Below are positions 3,961 through 48,018 of a DNA stretch of 64,000 nt, piece after piece (position 1 is the stretch's first letter; each line of letters starts with the position of its first letter). Location: NCBI GenBank assembly GCA_964638035.1, contig CAZWXD010000011.1, positions 24,875-88,874 on the forward strand, in the 5' to 3' direction. The position numbers and the translations under genes were made by a program. This DNA is from an uncultured Gemmatimonadaceae bacterium. GTDB lineage: Bacteria > Gemmatimonadota > Gemmatimonadetes > Gemmatimonadales > GWC2-71-9. Below the pieces are notes generated by a model, which was given only the letters and a program-made list of their open reading frames with translations, was not told the DNA's origin and searched no databases.

Positions 3961-3992
3961 GACGGCGAGACGGCGAGACGCCGAGACGGCGA
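3961..3992 (+). repeat. Tandem octamer array, family 1 (GACGGCGA x4, one GACGCCGA variant), single arm
   Basis: Read directly: gacggcga gacggcga gacgccga gacggcga, beginning 4 nt after the pilC stop. The same unit recurs at 46288.. and, as its complement, at 47979... Confidence 0.85.
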
Positions 3993-3993
3993 G

Positions 3994-4024
3994 GGCCCCA
4001 GGGGAGTGATCCCCGGGGCTTTTC
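3994..4024 (+). terminator. Rho-independent terminator after pilC
   Basis: GCCCC(A)GGGGA - gtga - TCCCCGGGGC stem-loop followed by TTTT. Confidence 0.75.
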
Positions 4025-4027
4025 GTC

Positions 4028-4210
4028 GTGCCCCCAGCGGTGGTCACTGCCGTCCAGCCCGGCGGAGTTCAGGGCGTGGCGCTGCACGAGATGGGGCACG
4101 TCCTGGGCTTCGGGAGCATCTGGGAAGAGCGCGGCCTCCTCGCCGATGCGAGCTGGAGCGGCGGCCTGGACCCGCACTTCGTCATGCCCATGGGGGCTCG
4201 GCACCGATCC
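4028..4210 (+). pseudogene. Relic of a zincin metallopeptidase (leishmanolysin/M8-like HExxHxxGF core)
   Basis: Translation ...GVQGVALHEMGHVLGFGSIWEERGLLADASWSGGLDPHF... carries a catalytic-helix motif. There is no N-terminal domain or signal peptide. The ORF starts inside the terminator tail and runs out of frame into the M48 gene. Confidence 0.35.
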
Positions 4211-9551: not shown

Positions 9552-11315
9552 ATGACACGACTGGCTCTACCCCGACTTCCTGCCGGGCAGCTCCTGACCG
9601 TCCTGGCCCTCGCGGCACCCCTCTCTGCCCAGGCGGTCCCCGACGTCGAGGCCTCCCCCGCAGTCGCGATGGAGGATGCACTCAAGGCCTCGATGGCAGC
9701 GAGGCGGCTCCCGGCCATGCGCTTCGGCGACATTTCAGACGTCCGGGCGGCGGCACGCGGACTCTATGAGGCCGGGGGCTGGACGCCCCTCTGGCTCGAC
9801 TCGGCGGGGATGCCCACTCCTGCCGCCAAGGCGTTGGTGGGACGACTGGGGGCCCTGGCGGCCCATGGCCTCGACCCCGACGACTACGATGCCGCGCTGC
9901 ACAAGCAGGTGCTGGCCCGTATCGAGGCCGGGACACCCTGGATGGGAACGGTGGCCCTGGCCGAGTTCGACACCCGCCTCACAGCCGATGGCCTGCGCTA
10001 CCTCGGCGCGATGCGCCACGGAAGGGTCCGGCTCCGGTGGAAGGATTCGCTCGCGATCGAGCGGTCATTCATGACCGTGCGTCGTGCGCCAACCGATAGC
10101 GTCGCCGAGCTGATCTCGGCGCTCCGGCTGGCCCAGGATCCGGGACGGGAGCTGCTCACCATCGAGGACCGTGGCCCATCCTACCGTGCGTTGCAGGCGG
10201 GGCTTGCCGACTACCGCGCACGCGCGGCGGACACCGCGGGACAGGTACCGCTGCGGCTGCCGACCCGCCTCGTGCCCGGCGCTCACTGGGACGGCATTGC
10301 TGCCTTGCGTGCACTGCTGCGCCGCACCGGCGACCTCATCGACACGCTGCCAGCGCCGTCGGCGGAGGCTGACACCACCTACTCACCGGAACTGGTGGCC
10401 GCGATCAAGCGCCTGCAGCGCCGCGAGGGCCTTGCGCCCGATGGCGTCATCGGCACGAAGACGGCGCAGCACCTGGCCAACCCATTCCGGACGCCGGTTC
10501 GCGCGCTGGTGCTGGCCCTGGAGCGGGCGCGCACCCTCCCCGACCCTCCCACGGACAGCGTGTACATCGAGGTGAACATCCCCGAGTTCCGGCTCCGGGT
10601 GCGGGATCCAATGCGCGACACAACCCTGTTCGGCATGAACGTGGTCGTGGGCGGAAAGGGCCGGAACGAGACGCCGGAACTCGCCAGCACGGTGGACATG
10701 ATCGTGTTCAGCCCCACCTGGCGCATCCCGCCCAGGATCCTGCGGGAGGACATCATCCCCAAGGTGCTGCAGGACACGAACTACCTGACCAAGCAGGGGA
10801 TGGAGCTGGTGCGGGACGGCAAGGTGGTCCAGGCCACCTTCGACAATGTGGCGCTCATCGGCGACTCGGTGGGGGTCCGGCAGCGTTCCGGCGGGGGCAA
10901 CTCCCTCGGCAAGGTCAAGTTCCTCTTCGCCAATTCGTACGGCGTGTACCTGCACGATACGCCGACCCGCTCCACCTTCCGCCGGGCCCAGCGGGCCGAG
11001 AGCCATGGCTGCGTTCGCCTGGAGGATGCGCCGTCCCTGGCGACCTGGCTCCTGCGGGACGACGGGACCTGGGACCAGCAGCGGCTCAGGGAGGCGATGA
11101 AGGCCCCGGAGCCGGTGGACGTGGACCTCACCGCGACCGTGCCCGTGCGGCTCGTGTACCAGACGGCGTCGCTCGGTCCTCATGGGACCGTCGAGTTCCA
11201 TCCCGACGTGTATGGGCGCGACCGGTACCTCGAGCAGGCGCTCGGGACTGGCTATCCCTTCCCATCCAGGGCCACGCCGTTGCAGCAACTGCAACGTGTG
11301 CGGAAAAACCACTGA
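9552..11315 (+). CDS. L,D-transpeptidase, YcbB/LdtD-like
   Basis: Signal peptide MTRLALPRLPAGQLLTVLALAAPLSAQA. PG-binding repeat LQRREGLAPDGVIGTKTAQHL. YkuD catalytic motif SHGCVRLED. Confidence 0.85.
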   Translation: MTRLALPRLPAGQLLTVLALAAPLSAQAVPDVEASPAVAMEDALKASMAARRLPAMRFGDISDVRAAARGLYEAGGWTPLWLDSAGMPTPAAKALVGRLGALAAHGLDPDDYDAALHKQVLARIEAGTPWMGTVALAEFDTRLTADGLRYLGAMRHGRVRLRWKDSLAIERSFMTVRRAPTDSVAELISALRLAQDPGRELLTIEDRGPSYRALQAGLADYRARAADTAGQVPLRLPTRLVPGAHWDGIAALRALLRRTGDLIDTLPAPSAEADTTYSPELVAAIKRLQRREGLAPDGVIGTKTAQHLANPFRTPVRALVLALERARTLPDPPTDSVYIEVNIPEFRLRVRDPMRDTTLFGMNVVVGGKGRNETPELASTVDMIVFSPTWRIPPRILREDIIPKVLQDTNYLTKQGMELVRDGKVVQATFDNVALIGDSVGVRQRSGGGNSLGKVKFLFANSYGVYLHDTPTRSTFRRAQRAESHGCVRLEDAPSLATWLLRDDGTWDQQRLREAMKAPEPVDVDLTATVPVRLVYQTASLGPHGTVEFHPDVYGRDRYLEQALGTGYPFPSRATPLQQLQRVRKNH

Positions 11316-11385
11316 CATTCCTTGCGCGATCGGGCCGCGGCCCGTTTCTTGTCTCCTGACTTCACCGTACCGGACCCGGGGACGC

Positions 11386-12321
11386 ATGATGTTGCAGGCA
11401 AGGCCGCGCGGCGCCCGAAGCGCCGCCCTTCTGGGGGGACTCGTTCTGCCAGCGCTTCTTGCGCTTGGCACGAGCGTGGCCATGGCGCAAGGGGACGCGG
11501 TACCGGAGCCGGAACCGGTGGAAGTCGCGCCGCGCACCGACCTGACCCACCTCCTCGGTGCGAGTGGGCGCGTGCGCCTGATTGCGGCCACCCCGGAACG
11601 CCTGGCCAGCGATTCGCTGCTGGCACGCGTGTTCGCGGAGCAGGGCATCACCGAGGCCGGGCTGCGGCCGGCGAGCCTGCAGGCGCCAGATGGCTCCCTC
11701 CTCACCCTGGCCCTGCTGATCCCGTTCGAGCAGAAGACCGGTGGGACACTGCAGGGGTACCGCGTGGGCTACTGGCCCAGTGAGAAGCGGGCCTCGGTGC
11801 ACACGGCGCTGCCGGTGGGCTTCATCGAGGTCAATGAGCTGACCCAGGATGCGCTGCTGTCACGGCACTTCCGCGCCCGGCAGTTCCTCACCAAGGACCA
11901 GTTCGACACCTGGCCCAAGTACCTGCTGGTGGACCCCAAGCTGCTGGACAAGCTGGAGCTCGTCATTGCCCAGCTGGAGGAAATGGGCCACTCGGCCGGG
12001 ATCAGGGTGCTGTCGGGCTTCCGCTCACCACAGTACAACCAGCGGGGCGTGTGCCGCCGCTGTCGGCGGGCGAAGGACAGCCGGCACATGTACGGGGACG
12101 CGGCCGACATCTTCATCGATGCCGACAGCAACGGGGTGATGGACGACCTGAACGGTGACGGGAAGGTGACGACCGAGGATGCGCGCTACCTGGCCCGGGT
12201 GGTGGAGCGGGTCGAGGCGGCGCACCCCGAACTGGTGGGCGGGCTCGGCATCTACCGCGCGCGCCGCGGGCATGGCCCCTTCATCCACGTGGACACGCGA
12301 GGGCACGTGGCGAGGTGGTAG
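11386..12321 (+). CDS. Peptidase M15A family (DUF882/YcbK/MepK-like) murein endopeptidase
   Basis: Signal peptide. SGFRSPQYN, HMYGDAADI and FIHVDTRG (zinc-ligand pattern of M15A). Lies directly downstream of the ycbB-like gene, as in E. coli. Confidence 0.8.
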   Translation: MMLQARPRGARSAALLGGLVLPALLALGTSVAMAQGDAVPEPEPVEVAPRTDLTHLLGASGRVRLIAATPERLASDSLLARVFAEQGITEAGLRPASLQAPDGSLLTLALLIPFEQKTGGTLQGYRVGYWPSEKRASVHTALPVGFIEVNELTQDALLSRHFRARQFLTKDQFDTWPKYLLVDPKLLDKLELVIAQLEEMGHSAGIRVLSGFRSPQYNQRGVCRRCRRAKDSRHMYGDAADIFIDADSNGVMDDLNGDGKVTTEDARYLARVVERVEAAHPELVGGLGIYRARRGHGPFIHVDTRGHVARW

Positions 12322-12325
12322 AAGA

Positions 12326-12480
12326 GGGCGTCAGGGCGTCAGGGCGTCAGGGCGTCAGGGCGTCAAGATGCCTGGAAAAACGTGCGGGGCGGTCCATCGG
12401 ACCGCCCCGCACTGTCATCCACCTTGACGTCCTGACGTCCTGACGTCCTGACGTCCTGACGCCTTGACGCCCTGACGCCT
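12326..12480. repeat. Inverted pair of tandem octamer arrays, family 2: (GGGCGTCA)x5 - 59-nt spacer - (TGACGYCY)x7
   Basis: Read directly. Left arm is 12326..12365 and right arm 12425..12480. The right unit is the reverse complement of the left, and its C-to-T variants still allow G-U pairing. The array fills the gap between two convergent stop codons. Confidence 0.9.
12382..12412. terminator. Perfect 14-bp hairpin at the centre of the octamer palindrome; likely bidirectional terminator
   Basis: GTGCGGGGCGGTCC - atc - GGACCGCCCCGCAC, between convergent genes. No clear U-tract. Confidence 0.6.
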
Positions 12481-14203
12481 ACTGCCGGCACTGCCCGTTC
12501 GGGTCGGGCTTCGGCTTGTCCACCACCGGCCGGTGGTCGGCGTTGGCCACGCCCAGCGCCACGGTGGACACGAAGGTGGCGATGCGCGCCATCTTCGGGA
12601 AGTTGATGTACTCGACCTCGTCGGTGGACTCGTGGTAGTCGCGGTGCACACCCGTGGTGAAGAACACGACCGGAATCCCCCAGCGCGCGTACATGTAGTG
12701 GTCGCTGCGGCAGTAGATGTTGGCCGGGTGGCCATTCTGGTCGAAGGTGTAGTCGAACTGGAAGCCGAAGTGTCCGTCGGTGTTCACCCTCTCGACCAGG
12801 TCACCCAGCTCGGTGGAGAGGCGGCGCGAACCCACCAGTTGCAGGTAGTCGGGACCACCCACGGTGCCCGGCTCACCCAGCACCATGTCGGTGGCATCGC
12901 CACGGCCCACCATGTCCATGTTGAGCTGCGCCACGATCGAGTCGCGCGGGACGGTGGGGTTGTCGGTGAAGTACTTCGAGCCCCAGAGGCCCTTTTCCTC
13001 GCCGGTGTGCCACACGAACAGCACCGAGCGCTTCGGCCGCACCTTCGACTGCTGCAGGGCCTGGGCGATCGCCAGCACGGTCACGGTGCCGGAGCCGTCG
13101 TCATCGGCACCGTTCCGGACCGAGTCGAGGCGCGGCTTCCGGGTCTTCCGCAGGCTGTCCAGGATGGCCTTGACCTTCACCATCTCCTCAGCGGTGGCGG
13201 TGCGCATCTCGCTTTCGGCGCCAGCCGGCCGCACGACCGTATTGAAGGCGCGCAGCGAATCGTGGTCCACCACGACCGACGACATGCCGACATGGTCGTT
13301 GTGCGCGCCGATGGCGACGTACTCGCCCTTGAGCTTCGGGTCGCTCCCCGGGATCATGCCGATGACATTCCGTGCCGGGAACGCCACCGGGCCGCTCACG
13401 GTCGAGATGTTCGCGTTCACCGGACGGCCCGCAGCGCCTGGCGACAGGGTGGCGGGGCTGGCACCCAGGACCTTCGTGGCGGCGCCCTCGGTCAGCATCA
13501 TGGCGAAGAGCTTTCCGCCGGTGCGGGCCTGCGGCTCGGCCGACTTGAGGGCCATCTGCGGCTTGCCCAGGAAGTCGAGCACCGGGGGCGGCACGTCCTC
13601 CAGCGCCACGATCGCGATTGCCGCGGCGTCGGCATAGCGCTTGTCGAGCGACCGCCAGAACTGCCACGTCGGCTGCCCGCCCGATCCCAGCGGCGGAAGG
13701 AGCACGACCACCTTGCCCTTCACCTGTTCGGCGGACACCGTCGAGACCGAATCGCCCAGCCGGCCGCCAAAGACCGATGGGATGTCCGTGCCGGTGAGCC
13801 CGGGCGCGAACCCGAGTTGGGGGATGCCGCCAAAGCTGATGTAGTCGGTGTTGAGGACCAGCGGTGCACCACCGGCTGCCAGCGTGGAGTTTCGGTCCAC
13901 GCCCCGCTCCACCAGGGGCACTTCCTGGAACCAGGTGCCGTTCTCGCCCGCCGGCTTCAGGCCGATCTTCTGCGCCTGTGCCGCAATCCACGCGGTGCCC
14001 TTGAAGTTGCCCCGGGTGCCGGCTTCCCGGCCCTCCATCGAATCGTGGGCAAAGGCGGTCAGCTCGGCCCGCATGGTCGCGGGCGACGCCGCCGGAAAGG
14101 GACCGGCCGGGCTGGGCTGGGACGGGGCGGGGGTGGTCGTGCCGCCGCCGCAGGCGGCCAGGGCGAGGCCCACCAGGACCGAACCCAGGTGACGATTGCT
14201 CAA
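12479..14203 (-). CDS. M28 family aminopeptidase lipoprotein
   Basis: TTG start with AGGAG 6 nt upstream. Lipobox LALAAC. AHNDHVG, GADDDGSG and HTGEEKGLWGS metal-ligand motifs. Confidence 0.85.
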   Translation of the reverse strand: MSNRHLGSVLVGLALAACGGGTTTPAPSQPSPAGPFPAASPATMRAELTAFAHDSMEGREAGTRGNFKGTAWIAAQAQKIGLKPAGENGTWFQEVPLVERGVDRNSTLAAGGAPLVLNTDYISFGGIPQLGFAPGLTGTDIPSVFGGRLGDSVSTVSAEQVKGKVVVLLPPLGSGGQPTWQFWRSLDKRYADAAAIAIVALEDVPPPVLDFLGKPQMALKSAEPQARTGGKLFAMMLTEGAATKVLGASPATLSPGAAGRPVNANISTVSGPVAFPARNVIGMIPGSDPKLKGEYVAIGAHNDHVGMSSVVVDHDSLRAFNTVVRPAGAESEMRTATAEEMVKVKAILDSLRKTRKPRLDSVRNGADDDGSGTVTVLAIAQALQQSKVRPKRSVLFVWHTGEEKGLWGSKYFTDNPTVPRDSIVAQLNMDMVGRGDATDMVLGEPGTVGGPDYLQLVGSRRLSTELGDLVERVNTDGHFGFQFDYTFDQNGHPANIYCRSDHYMYARWGIPVVFFTTGVHRDYHESTDEVEYINFPKMARIATFVSTVALGVANADHRPVVDKPKPDPNGQCRQ

Positions 14204-37358: not shown

Positions 37359-38211
37359 TCGCCGATGGGCCGCGCTGCTGCTTGCCGTGGTGGTGGCGGC
37401 ATGTGGCAGCTCGAAGAAGCAGGCCGAACTCGAGGCCGCCGAGGCTGCGAAGCTGGCGACACTCCGGGCGCGCACCGACAGCATCCGGAAGGCGCGCACG
37501 GCCGACTCCCTGCAGGCCGTGCAGTGGGCCGCGTGCAGCGACTCCACCCTGGCGGCGCTCAGCAAGACCGCCGCGGGTCGCCGCGCCCTCAAGAAGGTGC
37601 CGGCGGGTCAGGTGGCACCGGAAGTGACGGGCGCGTGCGGCGCGCAGAAGCTCACCCAGGCCGCCCTGGCTGCCCGTGGGGACTCGGCGGCGAGCAAGGC
37701 GGGTGGGGTAGACCAGCCGGCAGGTACCGCGGCAGGTACCGCGGCAGGAACCGCTGCAGCGGCAGCGCCAGCGGCGCCCCAGCAGGTCGCCCGGGCTGAC
37801 TCTGCCCCGGCCATGCCGGCGCCCAGGGCGGTCGATTCACTCGACCCGCCGGCACCCGCGGAGCAGCAGGCGGAGGCATCGAGCGGCGACGTGCTCCGCG
37901 AGACCTACGCCTACGGCGGTGGCGCCCGCGACCCGTTCATGTCGCTGATCAACACGAAGTCGGCCGGTCCCGAGCTGGTGGACCTCCAGCTCGTGGCCAT
38001 CTACCAGGACATGCGGTCGTCGGCGAACAGCGTCGTCGTGCTGCGTGAGAAGCAATCGGGCAAGCGGCACAAGCTGCGCACGGGCGACCAGATCGGCCGG
38101 CTGCGCGTGGCGCAGGTTCGTGCGAAGGATGTGGTGTTCACGGTGGAAGACTTCGGGTTCGAGCGCCAGGAAACTCTCTCGCTCCGCAAGCAGGAGGATG
38201 TAGCCCAATGA
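37348..38211 (+). CDS. pilP: Type IV pilus assembly lipoprotein PilP
   Basis: Lipobox LAVVVAAC, Ala/Pro-rich linker, C-terminal PilP beta domain (RDPF...VVLREKQSGKRHKLRTGDQIG). Confidence 0.75.
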   Translation: MAPDRRWAALLLAVVVAACGSSKKQAELEAAEAAKLATLRARTDSIRKARTADSLQAVQWAACSDSTLAALSKTAAGRRALKKVPAGQVAPEVTGACGAQKLTQAALAARGDSAASKAGGVDQPAGTAAGTAAGTAAAAAPAAPQQVARADSAPAMPAPRAVDSLDPPAPAEQQAEASSGDVLRETYAYGGGARDPFMSLINTKSAGPELVDLQLVAIYQDMRSSANSVVVLREKQSGKRHKLRTGDQIGRLRVAQVRAKDVVFTVEDFGFERQETLSLRKQEDVAQ

Positions 38212-40067: not shown

Positions 40068-40099
40068 CTGGGCGCGGCCGTCCCGAGCAGTACCACGAG

Positions 40100-40126
40100 C
40101 CCGGCTGGCAAGGCCGGGCTTGTGTC
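40100..40126 (+). terminator. Rho-independent terminator after pilQ
   Basis: GCCCGGC - tggcaag - GCCGGGC followed by TTGTGT. Confidence 0.65.
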
Positions 40127-40233
40127 GTCAAGGCGTCAGGGCGTCAAGGCGTCAGGAGTCATATGTTCACGATCGTGCACCCGGGCGTCCTGACGCCCTG
40201 ACGCCTTGACGCCCTGACGTCCTGACGTCCCCC
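40125..40233. repeat. Inverted pair of tandem octamer arrays, family 2: (GGCGTCAR)x3-4 - 27-nt spacer - (TGACGYCY)x5-6
   Basis: Read directly. The spacer contains the perfect palindrome CACGATCGTG. The array ends about 13 nt before the aroC start. Coordinates here may be 1 nt high relative to the ORF track. Confidence 0.85.
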
Positions 40234-42140: not shown

Positions 42141-44993
42141 ATGAAGCGAAGCAAGTCGGGCAAGTCCAAGGCGCGCACCGCGGCCAGGACAAGAACGGCG
42201 GCCAAGGCGCCGAAGGCGGCCAAGCCAGCGGCACGGGCACCGAAAGCTGCCAAGGCGCCGGTGGCGAAGCGTGCGCCCGCGAAGGCCTCATCGAGCACAC
42301 CCACCCGGGCTGCTCCCGCTGCACGCACCCCTGTGCGGGCCCGCAAGGTCGGCGGCACGCACCTCGTCATCGTCGAGTCGCCCACCAAGGCACGCACCAT
42401 CAAGGGCTTCCTCCCCGCCGGGTACCGCGTGGAGGCCTCGATGGGCCACGTGCGCGACCTGCCGGGCGATGCCAAGGAAATCCCCGCCAAGTTCAAGGCG
42501 CTCGACTGGTCCCGCCTGGGCGTCAACGTCGACCAGGACTTCGAGCCCCTCTACATCGTCCCCTCCGACAAGAAGTCGGTGGTGCGGGAACTCAAGGAAG
42601 CGCTCGACGACGCCGACGAGCTGATCCTCGCCACCGACGAAGACCGCGAGGGGGAGAGCATCTCCTGGCACCTGCAGGAGTTGCTCAAGCCGCGCGTACC
42701 GGTGCGTCGCATGGTGTTCCACGAGATCACGCGTGACGCCATCCAGGAGGCGCTGGAGCACACTCGCGAGGTGGACGACCGGCTGGTGCGCGCCCAGGAA
42801 ACTCGGCGCATCCTCGACCGGCTCGTGGGTTACACCCTCTCACCGCTCCTCTGGAAGAAGATCGCCTGGGGCCTCTCGGCGGGGCGGGTGCAGTCAGTCG
42901 CCATGCGGCTGCTGGTGGTGCGGGAGCGCGAGCGGCGGGCGTTCCGCTCGGCCACCTACTGGGACCTGGTGGCGCAGCTGCTCCACGCGAAACAGGAATT
43001 CAAGGCCGAACTCACGGCCGTGGGCGGGAAGAAGGTGGCCACCGGCCGCGACTTCGACGAGTCCACCGGCAAGCTCGCCCAGGGGCGCGACGTGGTGCTG
43101 CTGGGTGCTGATGAGGCCGAGGCCCTTCGCACCCGCCTGCTCAAGGCCACCTGGACGGTGAGTGCAACGGAGGAGAAGCCCTCCATCCGGCGACCCTGGC
43201 CACCCTTCACCACGTCCACGCTGCAGCAGGAAGCCAACCGCAAGCTCCGGCTCTCGGCGCGTGATGCCATGCGCACGGCGCAGAACCTCTACGAGCAGGG
43301 CTTCATCACCTACATGCGCACCGACTCGGTCCACCTGTCGGACCAGGCGGTCTCGGCGGCGCGCAATGCGGTGACCGGCCTGTACGGCAAGGAGTACCTG
43401 CCAGCCGAGCCGAGGCGCTACACCAACAAGAGCGCCAACGCGCAGGAAGCGCACGAGGCCATTCGTCCGGCCGGCCAGTTTTTCAAGCTGCCGAGCCAGA
43501 CGAAGCTGGGTGGGCGCGAGCTGGCGCTGTACGACCTGATCTGGAAGCGCACGGTGGCGAGCCAGATGGCCGACGCGCGGCAGACGGCGCTCAGCGTCAC
43601 CATCGATGCAGCCGATGCCACCTTCCGGGCGTCGGGGAAGCGGATCGACTTCGCCGGCTTCCTCCGGGCGTACGTGGAGGGGTCGGACGATCCCGAGGCG
43701 GCGCTGGAAGACCAGGAAGTCATCCTCCCGCCGCTCAAGGAAGGCGACCGGCCCACCTGCCAGTCGCTCGAGGCGGTGTCGCACGACACCCAGCCGCCGG
43801 CACGCTATACCGAGGCAACCCTGGTGAAGGCCCTCGAGGCGGACGGGGTGGGGCGTCCCAGCACCTACGCCAGCATCATCGGCACCATCCTCGAGCGCGG
43901 GTACGCCCAGCGCGCGGGGCAGGCGCTGGTGCCCACCTTCACCGCCTTTGCGGTGACGGCGCTGCTGGAGGAGCACTTTCCCCACCTGGTGGATGAGGGG
44001 TTCACCGCCAGCATGGAAGAGACGCTCGACGAGATCTCCGAGGGCCACGCCGAGTGGCTCCCGTACCTGCGCGAGTTCTACTTCGGGCCCGAGGGGCTCA
44101 AGGCACAGGTGGGGCTGCACGAGAAGCAGATCGACCCCACCCTCGCCCGGACGGTGGACCTGGGCGGCCTCGATGCCAGGGTGAAGATCGGGAAGTTCGG
44201 GCCCTACGTTGAGGTGGAGCGCGGCGGCGAGACGATCAAGGCGTCGATTCCCCGGGACGCGGCGCCTGCAGACCTCTCCCCTGACCAGGTGGAGACGATC
44301 CTGCGCCAGAAGATCGAGGGTCCCGACGAGCTGGGGCGGCACCCCGAAACGAAGCAGCCCATCTACCTCCTCACCGGCCAGTACGGGCCGTACCTGCAGC
44401 TGGGTGAGGTGGTGGATGGAGAACCCAAGCCCAAGCGCGCGTCGCTGCCCCGCGGAGTGAAGCCCGAGGACGTCACCATGGAGATGGCGGTGGGGCTGCT
44501 CTCGCTGCCGCGCCACCTGGGTGACCATCCCGCCGACGGGCGTTCGGTGATGGCGGGGCTCGGACGGTTCGGGCCCTACATCGTCCATGACAAGGGCAAG
44601 GACGGCAAGGACTACCGCTCCATCAAGGGAGAGGACAACGTCCTCACCATCGCGCTGCCCCGCGCGCTGGAGTTGCTCGCCCAACCCAAGCAGGCGCGCG
44701 GGCGCCGCGCCGCACCCACGCCGGTGCGCGTCGTGGGCAGCCACCCCGACGACCAGCAGCCCGTCGGCCTCTACGATGGCCAGTACGGGCCCTACGTGAA
44801 GCACGGTGACGTGAGCGCCAGCCTGCCCAAGGGGAGCGACCCGGCACAGCTGACGCTTGCGGAAGCCATCGAGCTGCTCGCTGCGCGCCGGGCATCTGGA
44901 GGAGGCCGGCGCGGCAGGGGCAGCAAGGGTGGGCGGGGCGGGCGGGGTGGTGGTCCCGCGACCCCGCGGAGAAGGAAGGCCGCGGCGACGTGA
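42141..44993 (+). CDS. topA: DNA topoisomerase I with Lys/Ala-rich N-terminal and Arg/Gly-rich C-terminal tails
   Basis: Toprim [10 protein letters not shown]; active-site Tyr context [11 protein letters not shown]-terminal cysteine-free repeats (G.HPE...GQYGPY) of the actinobacterial type. GGGAGG Shine-Dalgarno sequence before ATG 42141. Confidence 0.93.
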
Positions 44994-46285
44994 CGGTGAC
45001 CGTGGTCGGTGGCGGCCTGGCGGGAAGTGAAGCCGCCTGGGCGCTGGCCGAGCGCGGTTACGAAGTGCTCCTCTCCGAGATGCGGCCCCTGGTGCCCACG
45101 GCGGCGCACCAGTCGGGCCGACTGGCCGAGCTGGTCTGCTCCAACTCCTTCAAGTCCATCGAAGTCGAGAATGCCCACGGGCTCCTGAAGCACGAGCTTC
45201 GCCTGCTCGGCAGCCTGCTCCTGCCCCTGGCCGACCAGGCACGGGTGCCGGGTGGCGCCGCGCTGGCCGTGGATCGCGAGGTGTTCTCGCGCCTGGTCGA
45301 TGCGCGCATCCGCTCGCACCCGCGCATCCGCGTGCACACGGCCGAAGTGACCTCGCTCCCGAGCCCGGGCATCGTGGCCACGGGGCCACTCACGTCCCCG
45401 GGGCTCGCCCAGGCGATCGCAGGGCGGCTCGGGGCGGAGTCGCTCGCGTTCTACGATGCCATCGCGCCCATCGTGAGCCGAGACTCGCTCGATGGCGAGC
45501 GCATCTACGCCCGCTCCCGCTATGGCAAGGGCGAGGGGGATGACTACCTCAATGCTCCCTTCGGGCGGGAGGAGTATGAGGCCTTCGTGGATGCGCTGGT
45601 GGCGGCCGACCAGCACGCAGGCCATGACTTCGACACGGTGCCCTACTTCGAGGGCTGCCTGCCGGTCGAGGAGATGGCGCGGCGCGGGCGGGAGACGCTG
45701 CGATTCGGGCCGATGAAGCCGGTGGGCCTCGCCGACCCGCGGACCGGCCGCGAGCCGTACGCCGTGGTGCAGTTCCGGCGGGAGGACCAGGCAGGGCAGA
45801 TGTGGAACCTGGTCGGCTTCCAGACCCGCCTCCGCATTCCCGAACAGCAGCGTGTCTTCCGCATGATCCCGGGGCTCGAGCACACCGAGTTCCTGCGCTA
45901 CGGCAGCATCCACCGGAACTCGTACCTCAACAGCCCGGCGAGCCTCGGGCCCGGGCTGGCGGCACGGGACGACGCAGCGCTCTTCTTCGCGGGCCAGCTC
46001 ACCGGTGTCGAGGGCTACACTGAATCGCTCGGCACCGGCCTCCTGGCCGGGATCAACCTGGCGCGGGTGCTGCAGGGAAAGCCGGTGCGCGTGCCGCCTG
46101 CCACCACCATGCTGGGTGGGCTGTACCGCTACCTAAGCGACGCCAACCCGGCACATTTCCAGCCGATGAATGCCAACTTCGGGTTGCTGGATCCGCTACC
46201 TGGCAAGGTGCGGAAGGACGACAGGAAGCGGCTGCTGGCGGAACGGGCGGTTGCCGACTTCGGGGCGTGGATGGAGGGGGTGTGA
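44990..46285 (+). CDS. trmFO: Methylenetetrahydrofolate--tRNA-(uracil-5-)-methyltransferase TrmFO
   Basis: [22 protein letters not shown] motif; full-length family similarity. Confidence 0.92.
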
Positions 46286-46287
46286 GG

Positions 46288-46423
46288 GACGGCGAGACGG
46301 CGGGACGGCGGGACGGCGGGATGGCGAGGCGGCGAGACGGCGGGATGGCGAGACGGCGAGACGGCGAGGAGCGTCCGTCAATCACTCCCGGCGTCCCGCC
46401 GTCCCGCCGTCCCGCCGTCCCGG
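46288..46423. repeat. Inverted pair of tandem octamer arrays, family 1: (GACGGCGR)x10 - 24-nt spacer - (CCGCCGTC-type)x4
   Basis: Read directly. Left arm is 46288..46367, with variants GATGGCGA x2 and GGCGGCGA x1. Right arm is 46392..46423. The array starts 3 nt after the trmFO stop and runs into the xerC reading frame. Confidence 0.9.
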
Positions 46424-47961: not shown

Positions 47962-47978
47962 ACGTTTCATCGTCGTCG

Positions 47979-48018
47979 CCGTCCCGCCGTCCCGCCGCCC
48001 CGCCGTCCCGCCGTCCCG
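47979..48018. repeat. Tandem octamer array, family 1 complement (CCGTCCCG x5, one CCGCCCCG variant), single arm
   Basis: Read directly in the 75-nt hslV-hslU spacer. Confidence 0.85.

What the first reader, a model, noticed from the sequence alone, without database searches (positions are those of the whole stretch)
12326..12480. Inverted arrays of tandem 8-nt repeats around a perfect hairpin: archetype of a recurrent intergenic element
Seen: (GGGCGTCA)x5 occupies 12326..12365. A 59-nt spacer contains a perfect 14-bp stem with a 3-nt loop (12382..12412). (TGACGYCY)x7 occupies 12425..12480. The right unit is the reverse complement of the left, and its C-to-T variants (TGACGTCC) would still pair as G-U in RNA. 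The element exactly fills the gap between two convergent stop codons, and the right arm includes the M28 gene stop.

The same design recurs at 40125..40233 (same unit) and 46288..46423 (unit GACGGCGR). Single arms occur at 3961..3992 and 47979..48018. That makes five copies in 64 kb, all at gene boundaries and none inside a gene body.

Inference: the arms can pair in any 8-nt register, giving a register-slippable long stem (cruciform or RNA hairpin). Possible roles are terminator or mRNA-end protection, RNase III or REP-like processing sites, a protein binding array, or a slippage-prone VNTR. The left arm also fits a G3-N5 quadruplex pattern. I do not recognise this as a described repeat family.
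Basis: seen in the sequence. Interest (0 to 1): 0.65.

Follow-up and report, generated by a model that had tools for sequence, protein, structure and literature searches.

The report
Octamer repeat arms flanking a terminator
Two head-to-head runs of an 8-base repeat enclose the transcription terminator between two converging genes of a Gemmatimonadales bacterium. It is one copy of a genome-wide short-tandem-repeat family of a kind already described in Xanthomonas, cyanobacteria and Geobacter, and the origin and function of that kind are still unknown.

Summary
(GGGCGTCA)x5 and (TGACGYCY)x7 flank a perfect 14-bp hairpin and fill the spacer between the stops of a DUF882/M15_2 gene and an M28 peptidase gene. 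The hairpin is the canonical Rho-independent terminator of the M28 gene.

The window holds eight period-8 arrays at five loci, in two unit families. No arrays of neighbouring periods (5-7, 9-11) are present.

The source is an activated-sludge Gemmatimonadales bacterium. Orthologous spacers in four relatives keep the same layout (array, terminator, array) with an 8-nt period. Their unit sequences differ, yet the arms are always complementary. One relative has the terminator alone.

Array words are about 100-200x over-represented in the source metagenomes, so the family has many other loci.

Arrays follow a strand rule. They are G-rich on the sense strand just after stops and C-rich just before starts. 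One pair is translated as an N-terminal extension of XerC.

This design matches the abundant 7-9-nt intergenic repeats of Xanthomonas, Nostoc (STRR) and Geobacter, including their convergent inverted pairs. It is therefore a new member of a known, mechanistically unexplained kind. How the unit spreads and what it does remain unexplained, and no usable RNA data exist.

The parts
12319..12321 (+). Stop codon (TAG) of the DUF882 / Peptidase_M15_2 gene (11182-12321)
   Evidence: ORF list. Pfam PF05951, E = 4.9e-11.
12326..12365 (+). Left arm, (GGGCGTCA)x5. It is G-rich on the sense strand of the gene it follows.
   Evidence: (100% match).
12374..12381 (-). T-tract of the M28 terminator (GTTTTTCC on the - strand, GGAAAAAC on the + strand)
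12382..12412 (-). Perfect 14-bp stem with a 3-nt loop. This is the Rho-independent terminator hairpin of the M28 gene. On the + strand it is followed by TGTCATCC, which is not a T-tract.
   Evidence: Terminator scan: 14 pairs, 12 of them G-C, tail GTTTTTCCAG. Analogous central terminators are present in the orthologous spacers.
12425..12480 (+). Right arm, (TGACGTCC)x4 then TGACGCCT, TGACGCCC, TGACGCCT. It is the reverse complement of the left unit and is G-rich on the sense strand of the M28 gene. The last unit overlaps the M28 stop codon.
12479..12481 (-). Stop codon (TAG) of the M28 peptidase gene (12479-14203)
   Evidence: PF04389.
3961..3993 (+). Single family-B arm, (GACGGCGA)x4, starting 4 nt after the pilC/T2SSF stop. 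It runs into a G+C-rich hairpin with a short T-run (about 3994-4030).
   Evidence: and the fold. The hairpin is not called by the consensus terminator scan.
40126..40156 (+). Family-A left arm of the second pair. It lies just after the pilQ terminator-like hairpin (about 40094-40124).
40189..40230 (+). Family-A right arm of the second pair. It ends 16 nt before the aroC start (TTG 40246), next to the Shine-Dalgarno sequence AGGAG.
46288..46368 (+). Family-B left arm, (GACGGCGR)x10, starting 3 nt after the trmFO stop. It lies inside the xerC reading frame. Two variant units (GATGGCGA) supply in-frame ATG codons.
46386..46422 (+). Family-B right arm, (YCCCGCCG)x4.6. It is translated as part of the XerC N-terminal extension and ends 1 nt before the conserved EFLAHLE motif.
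47977..48018 (+). Single family-B arm in the C-rich orientation, (CGCCGTCC)x5, between the hslV stop (47961) and the hslU start (48037). The orthologue L120 has 3 units.

Best explanation
The element is one locus of a genome-wide, lineage-specific family of short-unit tandem repeat arrays. The unit is 8 nt here and 7-9 nt in related Gemmatimonadales. This is the same kind of repeat as cyanobacterial STRR, the Xanthomonas GGGAATC repeats and the Geobacter 'paired sites'.

At this locus two arrays of one unit sit head to head on either side of the Rho-independent terminator of the M28 gene. The whole spacer between the converging genes is therefore one long interrupted palindrome.

Shown:
- the arrays, their complementarity and their excess over chance;
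- the terminator;
- the same array-terminator-array layout, with different units, in four orthologous spacers;
- a family with many loci;
- an intergenic and gene-end location with a strand rule: G-rich sense strand after stops, C-rich sense strand before starts.

Inferred mechanism:
- Arrays grow and shrink in 8-nt steps by slipped-strand mispairing.
- The two arms are kept complementary mainly by a DNA-level process. The likeliest is hairpin-templated (intrastrand template-switch) repair at palindromes. The way the arrays are laid down could also produce this.
- RNA selection is the less likely cause, because the M28 transcript should terminate before the second arm is transcribed.

Expected effect on RNA:
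- M28 mRNA ends at the central hairpin and carries only the G-rich array in its 3' UTR.
- Transcripts from the opposite gene meet no U-tract, read through, and fold into a stem of about -140 kcal/mol. That stem would block 3' exonucleases, be cut by RNase III, or limit antisense read-through.

The arrays are probably tolerated, semi-selfish passengers of intergenic DNA. Any function would be generic (3'-end or insulator), not a regulator specific to these two genes.
For: - Arrays and statistics.
- Terminator.
- Folding: + strand RNA -139.8 kcal/mol, z = -15.3. The - strand RNA gives -124.9, z = -12.9. DNA gives -75.5, z = -12.1.
- Source lineage is Gemmatimonadales, from activated sludge.
- Orthologous M28 spacers: L123 and L124 (units GGGCGTCA/GGACTTCA), L125 (GGTCKGAK) and L127 (GCGCCAGG) keep arrays around a central terminator hairpin. 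L126 has the hairpin only.
- Covariation of the arms: 89% of cells paired. 22 of 37 pairs changed on both sides, against 8.9 +/- 2.1 in shuffles (0 of 500 reach it) and at most 6 when the partners are slid.
- Many loci: array words have 110-214x the flank depth in three metagenomes. At least 7 other loci join the two arms through unrelated spacers of 5-24 nt. Family B is at 15-27x.
- Intergenic bias: the window is about 90% coding, yet arrays sit in 4 of 23 spacers plus the xerC 5' end.
- Strand rule: 17:4 and 11:1, Fisher p = 1.2e-4.
- Copy-number change between relatives.
- Some genomes are rich in arrays and others poor.
- The same design and the same strand rule are published for Xanthomonas and Nostoc (PMC4692102). 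Paired tandem 7-9-nt sites are published for Geobacter (PMC2700814). STRR hairpins are reported in cyanobacterial operon spacers (PMC2670836).
Against: - Slippage plus template switching cannot move one octamer to more than 100 loci.
- It also does not explain the wholesale replacement of the array cassette between relatives whose flanks are 95-100% identical. The unit is GGCGTCAR in one and GRCGTTCA in the other, with unrelated spacers.
- There are no usable RNA data. The only metatranscriptome holds a 38-nt pure-array contig and no single-copy sequence of this organism. Transcript ends and processing are therefore untested.
- A near-identical strain (run X8) shows the same array length at the 46288 locus, so rapid strain-level length variation is not demonstrated.
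- Arms are not always symmetric. The 46288 pair has 10 units against 4.6.
- The persistence of the layout at 65-82% protein identity could equally mean selection for a function.
Confidence: 0.6

Rival explanations
1. It is a dedicated RNA element under selection. The arms extend the terminator stem to strengthen or make bidirectional the termination between converging genes. Alternatively they form a long double-stranded 3' hairpin that stabilises mRNA or is a defined RNase III site, working like REP/BIME or ERIC elements.
For: - The whole spacer folds into one hairpin in all four array-bearing orthologues.
- Compensatory changes keep the arms paired.
- C-to-T variants in the right arm keep G-U pairs in + strand RNA but give A.C mismatches in - strand RNA (-139.8 against -124.9 kcal/mol).
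- The layout is retained down to 65% protein identity.
Against: - In the window and in L127 a canonical terminator with a T-tract lies between the arms in the M28 sense. Most M28 transcripts should therefore never contain both arms.
- Single arms are common: 3961 and 47977 in the window, and three in L123.
- Arrays also sit in divergent promoter spacers and inside the xerC reading frame.
- A close relative (L126) has only a plain terminator.
- Array richness is a trait of the genome, not of the locus.
Confidence: 0.2
2. It is a non-autonomous mobile element (MITE- or REPIN-like). The array hairpins would be copied to new intergenic sites by a trans-acting transposase encoded elsewhere in the genome, for example a Y1/RAYT-type enzyme.
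For: - The unit is genome-specific and shared by very many loci.
- Other loci consist of the two arms joined by short unrelated loops (section 5c).
- The cassette is replaced at orthologous sites while the flanks stay nearly identical.
- Genomes are either array-rich or array-poor.
- In Geobacter, IS elements sit at a fixed distance from comparable paired sites.
Against: - There are no target-site duplications and no conserved termini or internal sequence. Spacers are unrelated at every locus.
- Arm lengths vary freely and single arms are frequent.
- At the M28 locus the 'internal' part is the terminator expected at that position.
- No transposase, reverse transcriptase or Y1 gene is found in the 64-kb window. 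This is a weak argument, because such a gene could lie elsewhere in the genome.
Confidence: 0.15
3. The arrays are binding sites for a protein. It could be a nucleoid-associated or global regulator on DNA, as proposed for Geobacter. It could also be a single-strand RNA-binding protein of the S1, Csp or CsrA type, as proposed for the Beggiatoaceae heptamers, that acts at gene ends.
For: - The strand rule relative to stops and starts argues for a transcription- or translation-linked reading of one strand.
- The same rule holds for two non-complementary arrays that abut each other in L125 4757-4820.
- The same unit recurs at many loci.
- Published proposals exist: PMC2700814, PMC4679880 and bioRxiv 10.1101/2022.06.06.494920.
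Against: - The unit sequence differs between close relatives and between loci of one genome. There are at least two families here, and 7-, 8- and 9-mers in L121 and L125.
- A single binder would have to co-evolve very fast, or there would have to be several binders.
- An 8-bp spacing puts successive duplex sites on different faces of the helix.
- No binder is known in any of the published cases.
Confidence: 0.15
4. It is a G-quadruplex element. The G3-N5 left arm would fold into a quadruplex in DNA or RNA that modulates transcription or translation, as argued for the Xanthomonas and Nostoc repeats.
For: - (GGGCGTCA)x5 fits the pattern of four or more G3 runs separated by 1-7 nt.
- Some family-B units (GACGGCGG) also give GGG-N5.
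- Quadruplex formation was shown in vitro for the heptamer repeats (PMC4692102).
Against: - G3 runs are not conserved. Orthologous arms use GGACTTCA, GGTCTGAG, GCGCCAGG and GGTGAGC.
- Within the window, units alternate between AGG and GGG.
- No preference for four units is seen.
Confidence: 0.05
5. The arrays are contingency (phase-variation) loci. Changes in unit number would switch neighbouring genes on and off, for example by frameshifting xerC or by altering the aroC leader.
For: - An 8-nt unit is not a multiple of three.
- The 46288 pair is inside the xerC frame.
- Copy number differs between relatives.
Against: - The neighbours are housekeeping genes (aroC, xerC, hslU, pilC, a peptidase), not surface or adaptation genes.
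- Most arrays lie after stop codons.
- The same argument was made against phase variation for the heptamer repeats.
- Run X8 shows no length change at the xerC locus.
Confidence: 0.05

Closest known systems
Xanthomonas GGGAATC and Nostoc GGGGA(C/T)T heptamer repeats (Rehm et al. 2015, PMC4692102)
   Same: - Tandem short-unit arrays at about 185 dispersed loci per genome, with a strong non-coding bias.
- 70-75 cases per Xanthomonas genome of two arrays in convergent orientation on opposite strands that can form stem-loops.
[quoted passage not shown]
- Length varies between related genomes while the locus type is kept.
- No link to IS elements, and the function is unresolved.
   Different: - The unit here is 8 nt (7-9 nt in relatives), not 7.
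- The sequence is unrelated.
- There are at least two unit families per genome.
- G3 runs are not conserved, so quadruplex formation is not a shared property.
- The unit sequence differs between close relatives at the same locus.
- The phylum is Gemmatimonadota.
- Here the pair encloses a terminator.
Cyanobacterial STRR (short tandemly repeated repetitive) sequences (Mazel et al. 1990, recalled from memory; PMC2670836 read here)
   Same: Lineage-specific short-unit tandem arrays at many intergenic loci. Inverted sets form hairpins inside operon spacers such as hupS-hupL. Proposed roles are transcript stability or translational coupling.
   Different: The units are heptamers of different sequence. 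According to Rehm et al., paired inverted arrays are few in Nostoc, whereas they are the majority form here.
Geobacter metallireducens 'paired global-regulator sites', classes 1-3 (Aklujkar et al. 2009, PMC2700814)
   Same: Pairs of sites on opposite strands. Each site is 3-5 tandem copies of a 7-9-nt unit (GTTGCTYN, TCTCCGTS[Y], MTYCTGA). The distance between the two sites varies. There are tens of pairs per genome, and they are unique to one species of the genus.
   Different: - Unrelated sequences with fewer copies per site.
- They were interpreted as IHF/HU-type binding sites, without a test.
- IS elements lie at a fixed distance from them, which is not seen here.
REP / BIME / REPIN extragenic palindromes
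   Same: Genome-specific and high in copy number. Extragenic, often between converging genes or inside operons. Inverted doublets fold into long hairpins that can stabilise upstream mRNA. This is established knowledge of the family.
   Different: - A REP unit is itself a 20-40-nt imperfect palindrome, not a tandem array.
- REPINs depend on a RAYT transposase, which could not be tested here.
- REPs do not slip in register or vary by unit number.
Beggiatoaceae / cyanobacterial TAACTGA heptamer direct repeats (MacGregor 2015, PMC4679880)
   Same: 169 intergenic sets of tandem short units close to start codons, with a patchy phylogenetic distribution. A post-transcriptional role was proposed.
   Different: They are A+T-rich heptamers, and almost all are direct repeats (only one indirect repeat). 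They lie mainly upstream of start codons.

Membership tests
Abundant intergenic short-unit tandem repeats (STRR / long SSR; Rehm 2015, Mazel 1990) | Head-to-tail copies of a unit of up to 9 nt, three or more copies | tested here: met
   Period 8 with 3.6-10.1 copies and 86-100% match at eight arrays.
Abundant intergenic short-unit tandem repeats (STRR / long SSR; Rehm 2015, Mazel 1990) | The same unit at many dispersed loci of one genome | tested here: met
   Family A is at 2 loci and family B at 3 loci in 64 kb. Array words are at 110-214x (A) and 15-27x (B) the flank depth. At least 7 other arm-spacer-arm joints are seen. Caveat: these are metagenomes, so relatives in the same community may contribute.
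Abundant intergenic short-unit tandem repeats (STRR / long SSR; Rehm 2015, Mazel 1990) | Strong bias to non-coding DNA close to ORF ends | tested here: met
   The window is about 90% coding. All arrays lie in 4 of 23 spacers or in the first 47 codons of xerC. Only one pattern hit, with 2 mismatches, lies in a gene body.
Abundant intergenic short-unit tandem repeats (STRR / long SSR; Rehm 2015, Mazel 1990) | Strand rule: G-rich strand on the coding strand just after stops, and on the non-coding strand just before starts | tested here: met
   After stops, 17 arrays are G-rich and 4 C-rich. Before starts, 11 are C-rich and 1 G-rich. Fisher p = 1.2e-4 over the window and five related loci. The loci are partly orthologous and so not independent.
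Abundant intergenic short-unit tandem repeats (STRR / long SSR; Rehm 2015, Mazel 1990) | Frequent convergent inverted pairs able to form stem-loops | tested here: met
   3 pairs in the window and 9 in relatives. In 11 of the 12 pairs the G-rich arm comes first. Folds have z = -4.5 to -15.
Abundant intergenic short-unit tandem repeats (STRR / long SSR; Rehm 2015, Mazel 1990) | Length varies between related genomes while the locus type is kept | tested here: met
   hslV-hslU has 5 units against 3. The M28 spacer has 7+5 against 4+4 units. No change was seen in a near-identical strain.
Quadruplex-forming repeats (subset defined by Rehm 2015) | Four or more G3 runs with short loops, conserved, with a preference for four units | tested here: not met
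   The pattern is present in 12326-12365. It is absent from the orthologous arms and from many units in the window.
REP / BIME / REPIN | The unit is a conserved 20-40-nt imperfect palindrome | tested here: not met
   The arms are tandem octamers with no palindrome inside the arm.
REP / BIME / REPIN | A cognate RAYT (Y1 transposase) gene in the genome | not testable with these tools
   None is found among the window ORFs. The rest of the genome is not available.
MITE | Defined terminal inverted repeats, target-site duplication, and a conserved internal sequence | tested here: not met
   Spacers are unrelated at every locus. No duplicated flank is seen. Arm length is variable.
Intrinsic (Rho-independent) terminator | G+C-rich stem-loop followed at once by a T-tract | tested here: met
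   Met for the central hairpin on the - strand only (M28 sense): 14 bp followed by GTTTTTCC. Not met on the + strand, where the tail is TGTCATCC. L127 has the equivalent hairpin.
Geobacter-type paired tandem sites (PMC2700814) | Two sites on opposite strands, each 3-5 tandem 7-9-nt units, at a variable distance, in tens of copies | tested here: met
   The design matches. There is no sequence similarity. The proposed protein binding is untested in both cases.
Phase-variation (contingency) SSR | The repeat lies in the promoter or ORF of surface or adaptation genes, and its length is heterogeneous within populations | tested here: inconclusive
   The neighbours are housekeeping genes. The xerC pair is in frame. 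Short-read contigs break in the arrays, so heterogeneity cannot be read.
Rfam RNA families | A match at the gathering score | tested here: not met
   No match in the whole window.

The most novel reading that the evidence does not exclude
The arrays are written by a trans-acting system that carries the unit as a template. It could resemble a telomerase or reverse transcriptase, or be a recombinase with a guide. It would be specific to each genome and would add tandem units at DNA ends or at hairpin bases.

This reading would explain four things:
- one octamer is present at more than 100 loci;
- the unit differs between relatives with 95-100% identical flanks, and is replaced as a whole cassette at orthologous sites;
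- pairs are head to head with the G-rich strand running 5'-3' towards the centre, like fused telomeres;
- related genomes are either full of arrays or nearly free of them.
Probability: 0.08. Interest if true: 0.9.

Novelty: new member of a known kind. Interest (0 to 1): 0.5.

Why it matters
Short-unit (7-9 nt) tandem arrays that crowd the intergenic DNA of some bacteria have been known since 1990. They still have no accepted origin or function.

This locus extends the phenomenon to Gemmatimonadota. More usefully, it gives a comparative series: the same spacer carries four different octamers, and one relative carries none. There are also array-rich and array-poor genomes within one order.

That contrast makes two questions testable by phylogenetic profiling and by experiment in cultured Gemmatimonas:
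- Which gene, or which lost repair function, goes with the arrays?
- Do the arms act on transcript ends?

Three practical points follow:
- The arrays break k-mer assemblies, so they are under-represented in short-read metagenome assemblies.
- They can be translated into low-complexity N-terminal extensions, as in XerC, which confuses start-codon annotation.
- Their variable length makes them candidate strain-typing markers.

Tried and rejected
- **Scan of species genomes for (GGCGTCAR)x3.** All are solitary arrays without an inverted partner. It did not return the source genome. I read these as sporadic repeats, not as the same family.
- **Metagenome scan for the inverted-pair pattern.** Only two trivial two-unit hairpins were found. 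Short-read contigs break in such arrays, so the scan says little.
- **Viral contig scans for both units.** They gave 2 and 1 hits, so there is no sign of a phage link.
- **Rfam and tRNA scans of the window.** Nothing was found.
- **RNA evidence.** The only run offered (X24) holds a 38-nt pure-array contig and otherwise only short conserved-domain fragments from other organisms. It is compatible with DNA carry-over from a multi-copy repeat, so it cannot be used.
- **Strain-level length variation.** Contigs end inside perfect arrays. Where run X8 crosses the imperfect 46288 array, the length is unchanged.
- **MITE or transposon reading.** Rejected for lack of target-site duplications, conserved ends or conserved interior.
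- **CRISPR.** Rejected, because the units are contiguous with no spacers.
- **Quadruplex as the common property.** Rejected on the orthologous units.
- **Consensus terminator scan of the hairpins next to the 3961 and 40126 arrays.** It does not call them, because one has a bulged stem and both have a T-run below the scan's threshold. I therefore call them terminator-like only, on the strength of the fold.
Full report
**1. What is in the sequence**

Positions 12326-12365 are five exact copies of GGGCGTCA. Positions 12425-12480 are seven copies of TGACGYCY, the reverse complement of that unit (TGACGTCC x4, then TGACGCCT, TGACGCCC, TGACGCCT).

The 59-nt spacer holds a perfect 14-bp stem with a 3-nt loop at 12382-12412. 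On the - strand this stem is followed by GTTTTTCC. The consensus scan calls it a Rho-independent terminator, and it is the only strong call in 1.7 kb.

The element fills the gap between two converging genes:
- a DUF882/Peptidase_M15_2 gene (11182-12321, +; Pfam PF05951), whose stop is 4 nt before the left arm;
- an M28 peptidase gene (12479-14203, -; PF04389), whose stop lies in the last repeat unit.

- 3961-3993;
- 40126-40156 with 40189-40230;
- 46288-46368 with 46386-46422;
- 47977-48018.

**2. More than chance, and not an artefact**

A simple autocorrelation scan finds seven arrays of period 8, none of periods 5, 6, 7, 9, 10 or 11, and one of period 12. Two-unit patterns with up to two mismatches occur 17 times (family A, GGCGTCAR) against 0.52 expected. 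Family B (GACGGCGR) occurs 20 times against 1.59 expected. Only one weak hit lies inside a gene body.

Independent Logan contigs from several sequencing runs carry the same junctions. Orthologous loci in JGI, ENA and NCBI assemblies show the same layout.

**3. Structure**

| Molecule folded (175 nt around the element) | Energy (kcal/mol) | z-score |
|---|---|---|
| + strand RNA | -139.8 | -15.3 |
| - strand RNA | -124.9 | -12.9 |
| single-stranded DNA | -75.5 | -12.1 |

The strand difference comes from the C-to-T variants in the right arm. They give G-U pairs in + strand RNA and A.C mismatches in - strand RNA.

The other two pairs also fold into long stems (z = -9.2 and -8.6). The single arm at 47977 is unstructured (z = -0.7).

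**4. Source and surroundings**

XerC and M28 homologues are named Gemmatimonadota or Gemmatimonadales by their sources. The DNA is found in activated-sludge, bioreactor and soil metagenomes.

The window is ordinary chromosome. It carries:
- type IV pilus genes;
- aroC-aroK-topA-trmFO-xerC-hslV-hslU;
- two-component systems;
- cell-wall enzymes.

No transposase, reverse transcriptase or Y1 gene was found. Rfam and tRNA scans found nothing.

**5. The same spacer in relatives**

I fetched the M28 / M15_2 converging spacer from relatives at 82%, 69%, 65% and 64% M28 identity.

| Locus | M28 identity | Left arm | Centre | Right arm |
|---|---|---|---|---|
| L123 (L124 shows the same left arm before its contig ends) | 82% | GGGCGTCC GCACGTCA GGACTTCA TGCCTTCA | terminator hairpin | CCTGAAGC CCTGAAGT CCTGACGC CCTGAACG |
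| L125 | 69% | (GGTCKGAK)x4 | hairpin | (GRCCRYCA)x4 |
| L127 | 65% | (GCGCCAGG)x3-4 | canonical terminator | (GCGCCCTG)x3 |
| L126 | 64% | none | terminator-like hairpin only | none |

Every array-bearing spacer folds as one long hairpin that encloses the terminator.

On an alignment of the four array-bearing spacers, 89% of cells are paired. 22 of 37 pairs carry changes on both sides, against 8.9 +/- 2.1 in shuffles (0 of 500 reach it) and at most 6 when the partners are slid. One caveat applies: a change in a repeated unit is counted once per copy.

So the period (8 nt), the layout and the complementarity are retained while the unit sequence is not.

**6. Other loci in relatives**

The block pilMNOPQ-aroC-aroK-topA-trmFO-xerC-hslV-hslU is syntenic in L120, L121 and L122.

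*L120* is the closest relative, with flanks 95-100% identical.
- It has pairs at the same two spacers.
- At pilQ-aroC its unit is GRCGTTCA instead of GGCGTCAR. The spacer is unrelated and aroC starts with ATG instead of TTG.
- The upstream terminator-like hairpin is identical base for base.
- That unit is absent from the window.
- At hslV-hslU both genomes share the unit CGCCGTCC, with 3 copies in L120 and 5 in the window.

*L121* has pairs in four consecutive spacers, built from 7-mers and 9-mers.

*L122 and L126* come from long contigs of 1.1 Mb and 3.5 Mb and have essentially no arrays.

Array richness is thus a property of the genome, not of the locus.

**7. Copy number of the family**

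Contigs of three metagenomes were laid on the locus. Flank depth is 21, 10 and 8. The array bins reach 3815, 2099 and 922, which is 110-214 times the flank. At least seven 'joints' are other loci where the left arm is joined to the right arm through unrelated spacers of 5-24 nt.

Family B words are 15-27 times over flank depth. The typical element is therefore a long hairpin of octamer repeats with a short loop, present at roughly a hundred loci. Relatives in the same community may add to these numbers.

**8. Position and polarity**

About 90% of the window is coding. The arrays lie in 4 of 23 spacers and in the 5' end of xerC.

Over 34 arrays in the window and five related loci:
- arrays nearest a stop codon are G-rich on that gene's sense strand 17 times out of 21;
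- arrays nearest a start codon are C-rich on the sense strand 11 times out of 12 (Fisher p = 1.2e-4);
- in 11 of 12 pairs the G-rich arm comes first.

The loci are partly orthologous, so these are not independent events. The rule holds even for two non-complementary arrays of different families that abut in a converging spacer (L125 4757-4820).

**9. An array pair inside a reading frame**

Most Gemmatimonadota XerC proteins start about 8 residues before the motif EFLTHLEKE. In the window no start codon lies between the right arm and this motif. The only in-frame starts are GTG 46267, GTG 46282, ATG 46321 and ATG 46345. GTG 46282 overlaps the trmFO stop as GTGA, which is the same arrangement as the annotated start in L120. 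The two ATG codons are variant repeat units.

At least 78 nt of the pair, and probably all of it, is therefore translated as a low-complexity N-terminal extension. Similar extensions occur in other orthologues: P0001, P0002, P0004, P0006, P0076 and P0117. The arrays behave as invaders of gene ends, not as precisely placed signals.

**10. How it most likely works**

*Shown:* the anatomy, the many-locus family, the retained complementarity, the polarity, and the terminator.

*Inferred:*
- Arrays change length by slipped-strand mispairing in 8-nt steps. This is supported only by differences between relatives.
- The arms are probably kept complementary by a DNA-level process. In the window and in L127 a canonical terminator lies between the arms in the M28 sense, so most M28 transcripts should never contain both arms.
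- The best candidate process is intrastrand template switching at quasi-palindromes, an established mutational mechanism in E. coli. I know this from memory and did not test it here.
- Transcripts of the opposite gene meet no T-tract after the hairpin. They should read through and form the full stem. That stem would block 3' exonucleases, attract RNase III, or curb antisense transcription into the M28 gene.

None of this explains how one unit reaches a hundred loci, or why it is replaced wholesale between close relatives. That part is unexplained.

**11. Comparison with what is known**

- **Rehm et al. 2015 (PMC4692102).** Xanthomonas carries about 185 GGGAATC heptamer arrays per genome, and Nostoc carries related GGGGAYT arrays. 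They show a non-coding bias. There are 70-75 cases per Xanthomonas genome of two arrays in convergent orientation on opposite strands that can form stem-loops. The strand rule relative to stops and starts is the same as here, and length varies between Xcc and Xac. There is no link to IS elements and no established function.
- **Aklujkar et al. 2009 (PMC2700814).** Geobacter metallireducens has three classes of 'paired sites' on opposite strands. Each site has 3-5 tandem 7-9-nt units, at a variable distance, and they were proposed without a test to be global-regulator sites.
- **Cyanobacterial STRR arrays** form hairpins in operon spacers (PMC2670836).
- **TAACTGA heptamers** crowd Beggiatoaceae leaders (PMC4679880).
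- **Nostoc recF/recO.** Deletion tests of heptamer repeats upstream of recO gave modest, unexplained effects on promoter activity; the role of those upstream of recF was left as speculation (bioRxiv 10.1101/2022.06.06.494920).

The element here meets every descriptive feature of this kind. It fails the defining features of REP/REPIN (no palindromic unit), MITE (no duplicated target site or conserved interior) and quadruplex repeats (G3 runs not conserved).

**12. Verdict**

This is a real, statistically robust repeat and a new member of a known but unexplained kind. Five points are new:
- the phylum;
- the 8-nt unit;
- several unit families per genome;
- an orthologous series in which the unit turns over while period, layout and arm pairing persist around a terminator;
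- translation of a pair into XerC.

Interest is moderate. It is not a new category, but it is a good system for attacking an old open question.

Noticed in passing
window 46267-46422 (xerC 5' end): The whole family-B array pair lies in the xerC reading frame. The only in-frame starts are GTG 46267, GTG 46282 (GTGA overlap with the trmFO stop), ATG 46321 and ATG 46345. The two ATG codons are variant repeat units. Several Gemmatimonadota XerC orthologues (P0001, P0002, P0004, P0006, P0076, P0117) have comparable low-complexity N-terminal extensions.
   Followed up: yes
L121 5985-6021 and 12302-12383: Arrays of a 9-nt unit sit in frame inside genes (the topA N-terminus and hslU). The 7- and 8-nt arrays stay outside genes or at their extreme ends. 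This is as expected if frame preservation decides where arrays are tolerated.
   Followed up: partly
L125 4757-4820: Two arrays of different families, (GACGCCTG)x5 and (CTAGACC)x4, abut in one converging spacer. They are not complementary, yet each is G-rich on the sense strand of the gene it follows.
   Followed up: partly
L126 11730-11775 compared with L125 11786-11897: The array-free relative carries GGTCGGAG...CTCCGACC once, as the stem of its terminator-like hairpin. L125 has the same octamer amplified about four times on both arms. This could be the seed of an array, a collapsed array, or coincidence.
   Followed up: partly
L120 11038-13193: A roughly 2.3-kb insert lies between xerC and hslV. 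It holds an Eco57I/N6-methyltransferase-type gene and a second ORF. It is absent from the window and from L121 and L122, and is probably a restriction-modification island.
   Followed up: no
window 42141-44993 (topA): Topoisomerase I has a Lys/Ala-rich N-terminal tail that resembles a histone H1 tail, and an RGG-rich C-terminal tail.
   Followed up: no
L001 5648-5679, L002 4327-4358; window 12325-12480: Logan (k = 31) contigs stop 31 nt into the array. Short-read assemblies therefore lose these spacers systematically. The metagenome scan for pairs found only two trivial hits.
   Followed up: yes
L003-L117 (species genome scan): (GGCGTCAR)x3 or longer occurs as solitary arrays in more than 115 species of other phyla, mostly Streptomyces and Kitasatospora, never with an inverted partner within 8 kb. 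I did not check whether these are coding or intergenic.
   Followed up: partly
window 37718-37759: (CGGCAGGTACCG)x3.5, an in-frame 12-nt repeat in the gene between pilO and pilQ.
   Followed up: no
L123 1520-1576 and 19523-19623: Long single arrays, (GGCGTCCA)x7 and (GCGTCCAA)x12, almost fill two divergent (promoter) spacers and end 8-21 nt before start codons. Arrays are therefore not confined to terminator contexts.
   Followed up: partly
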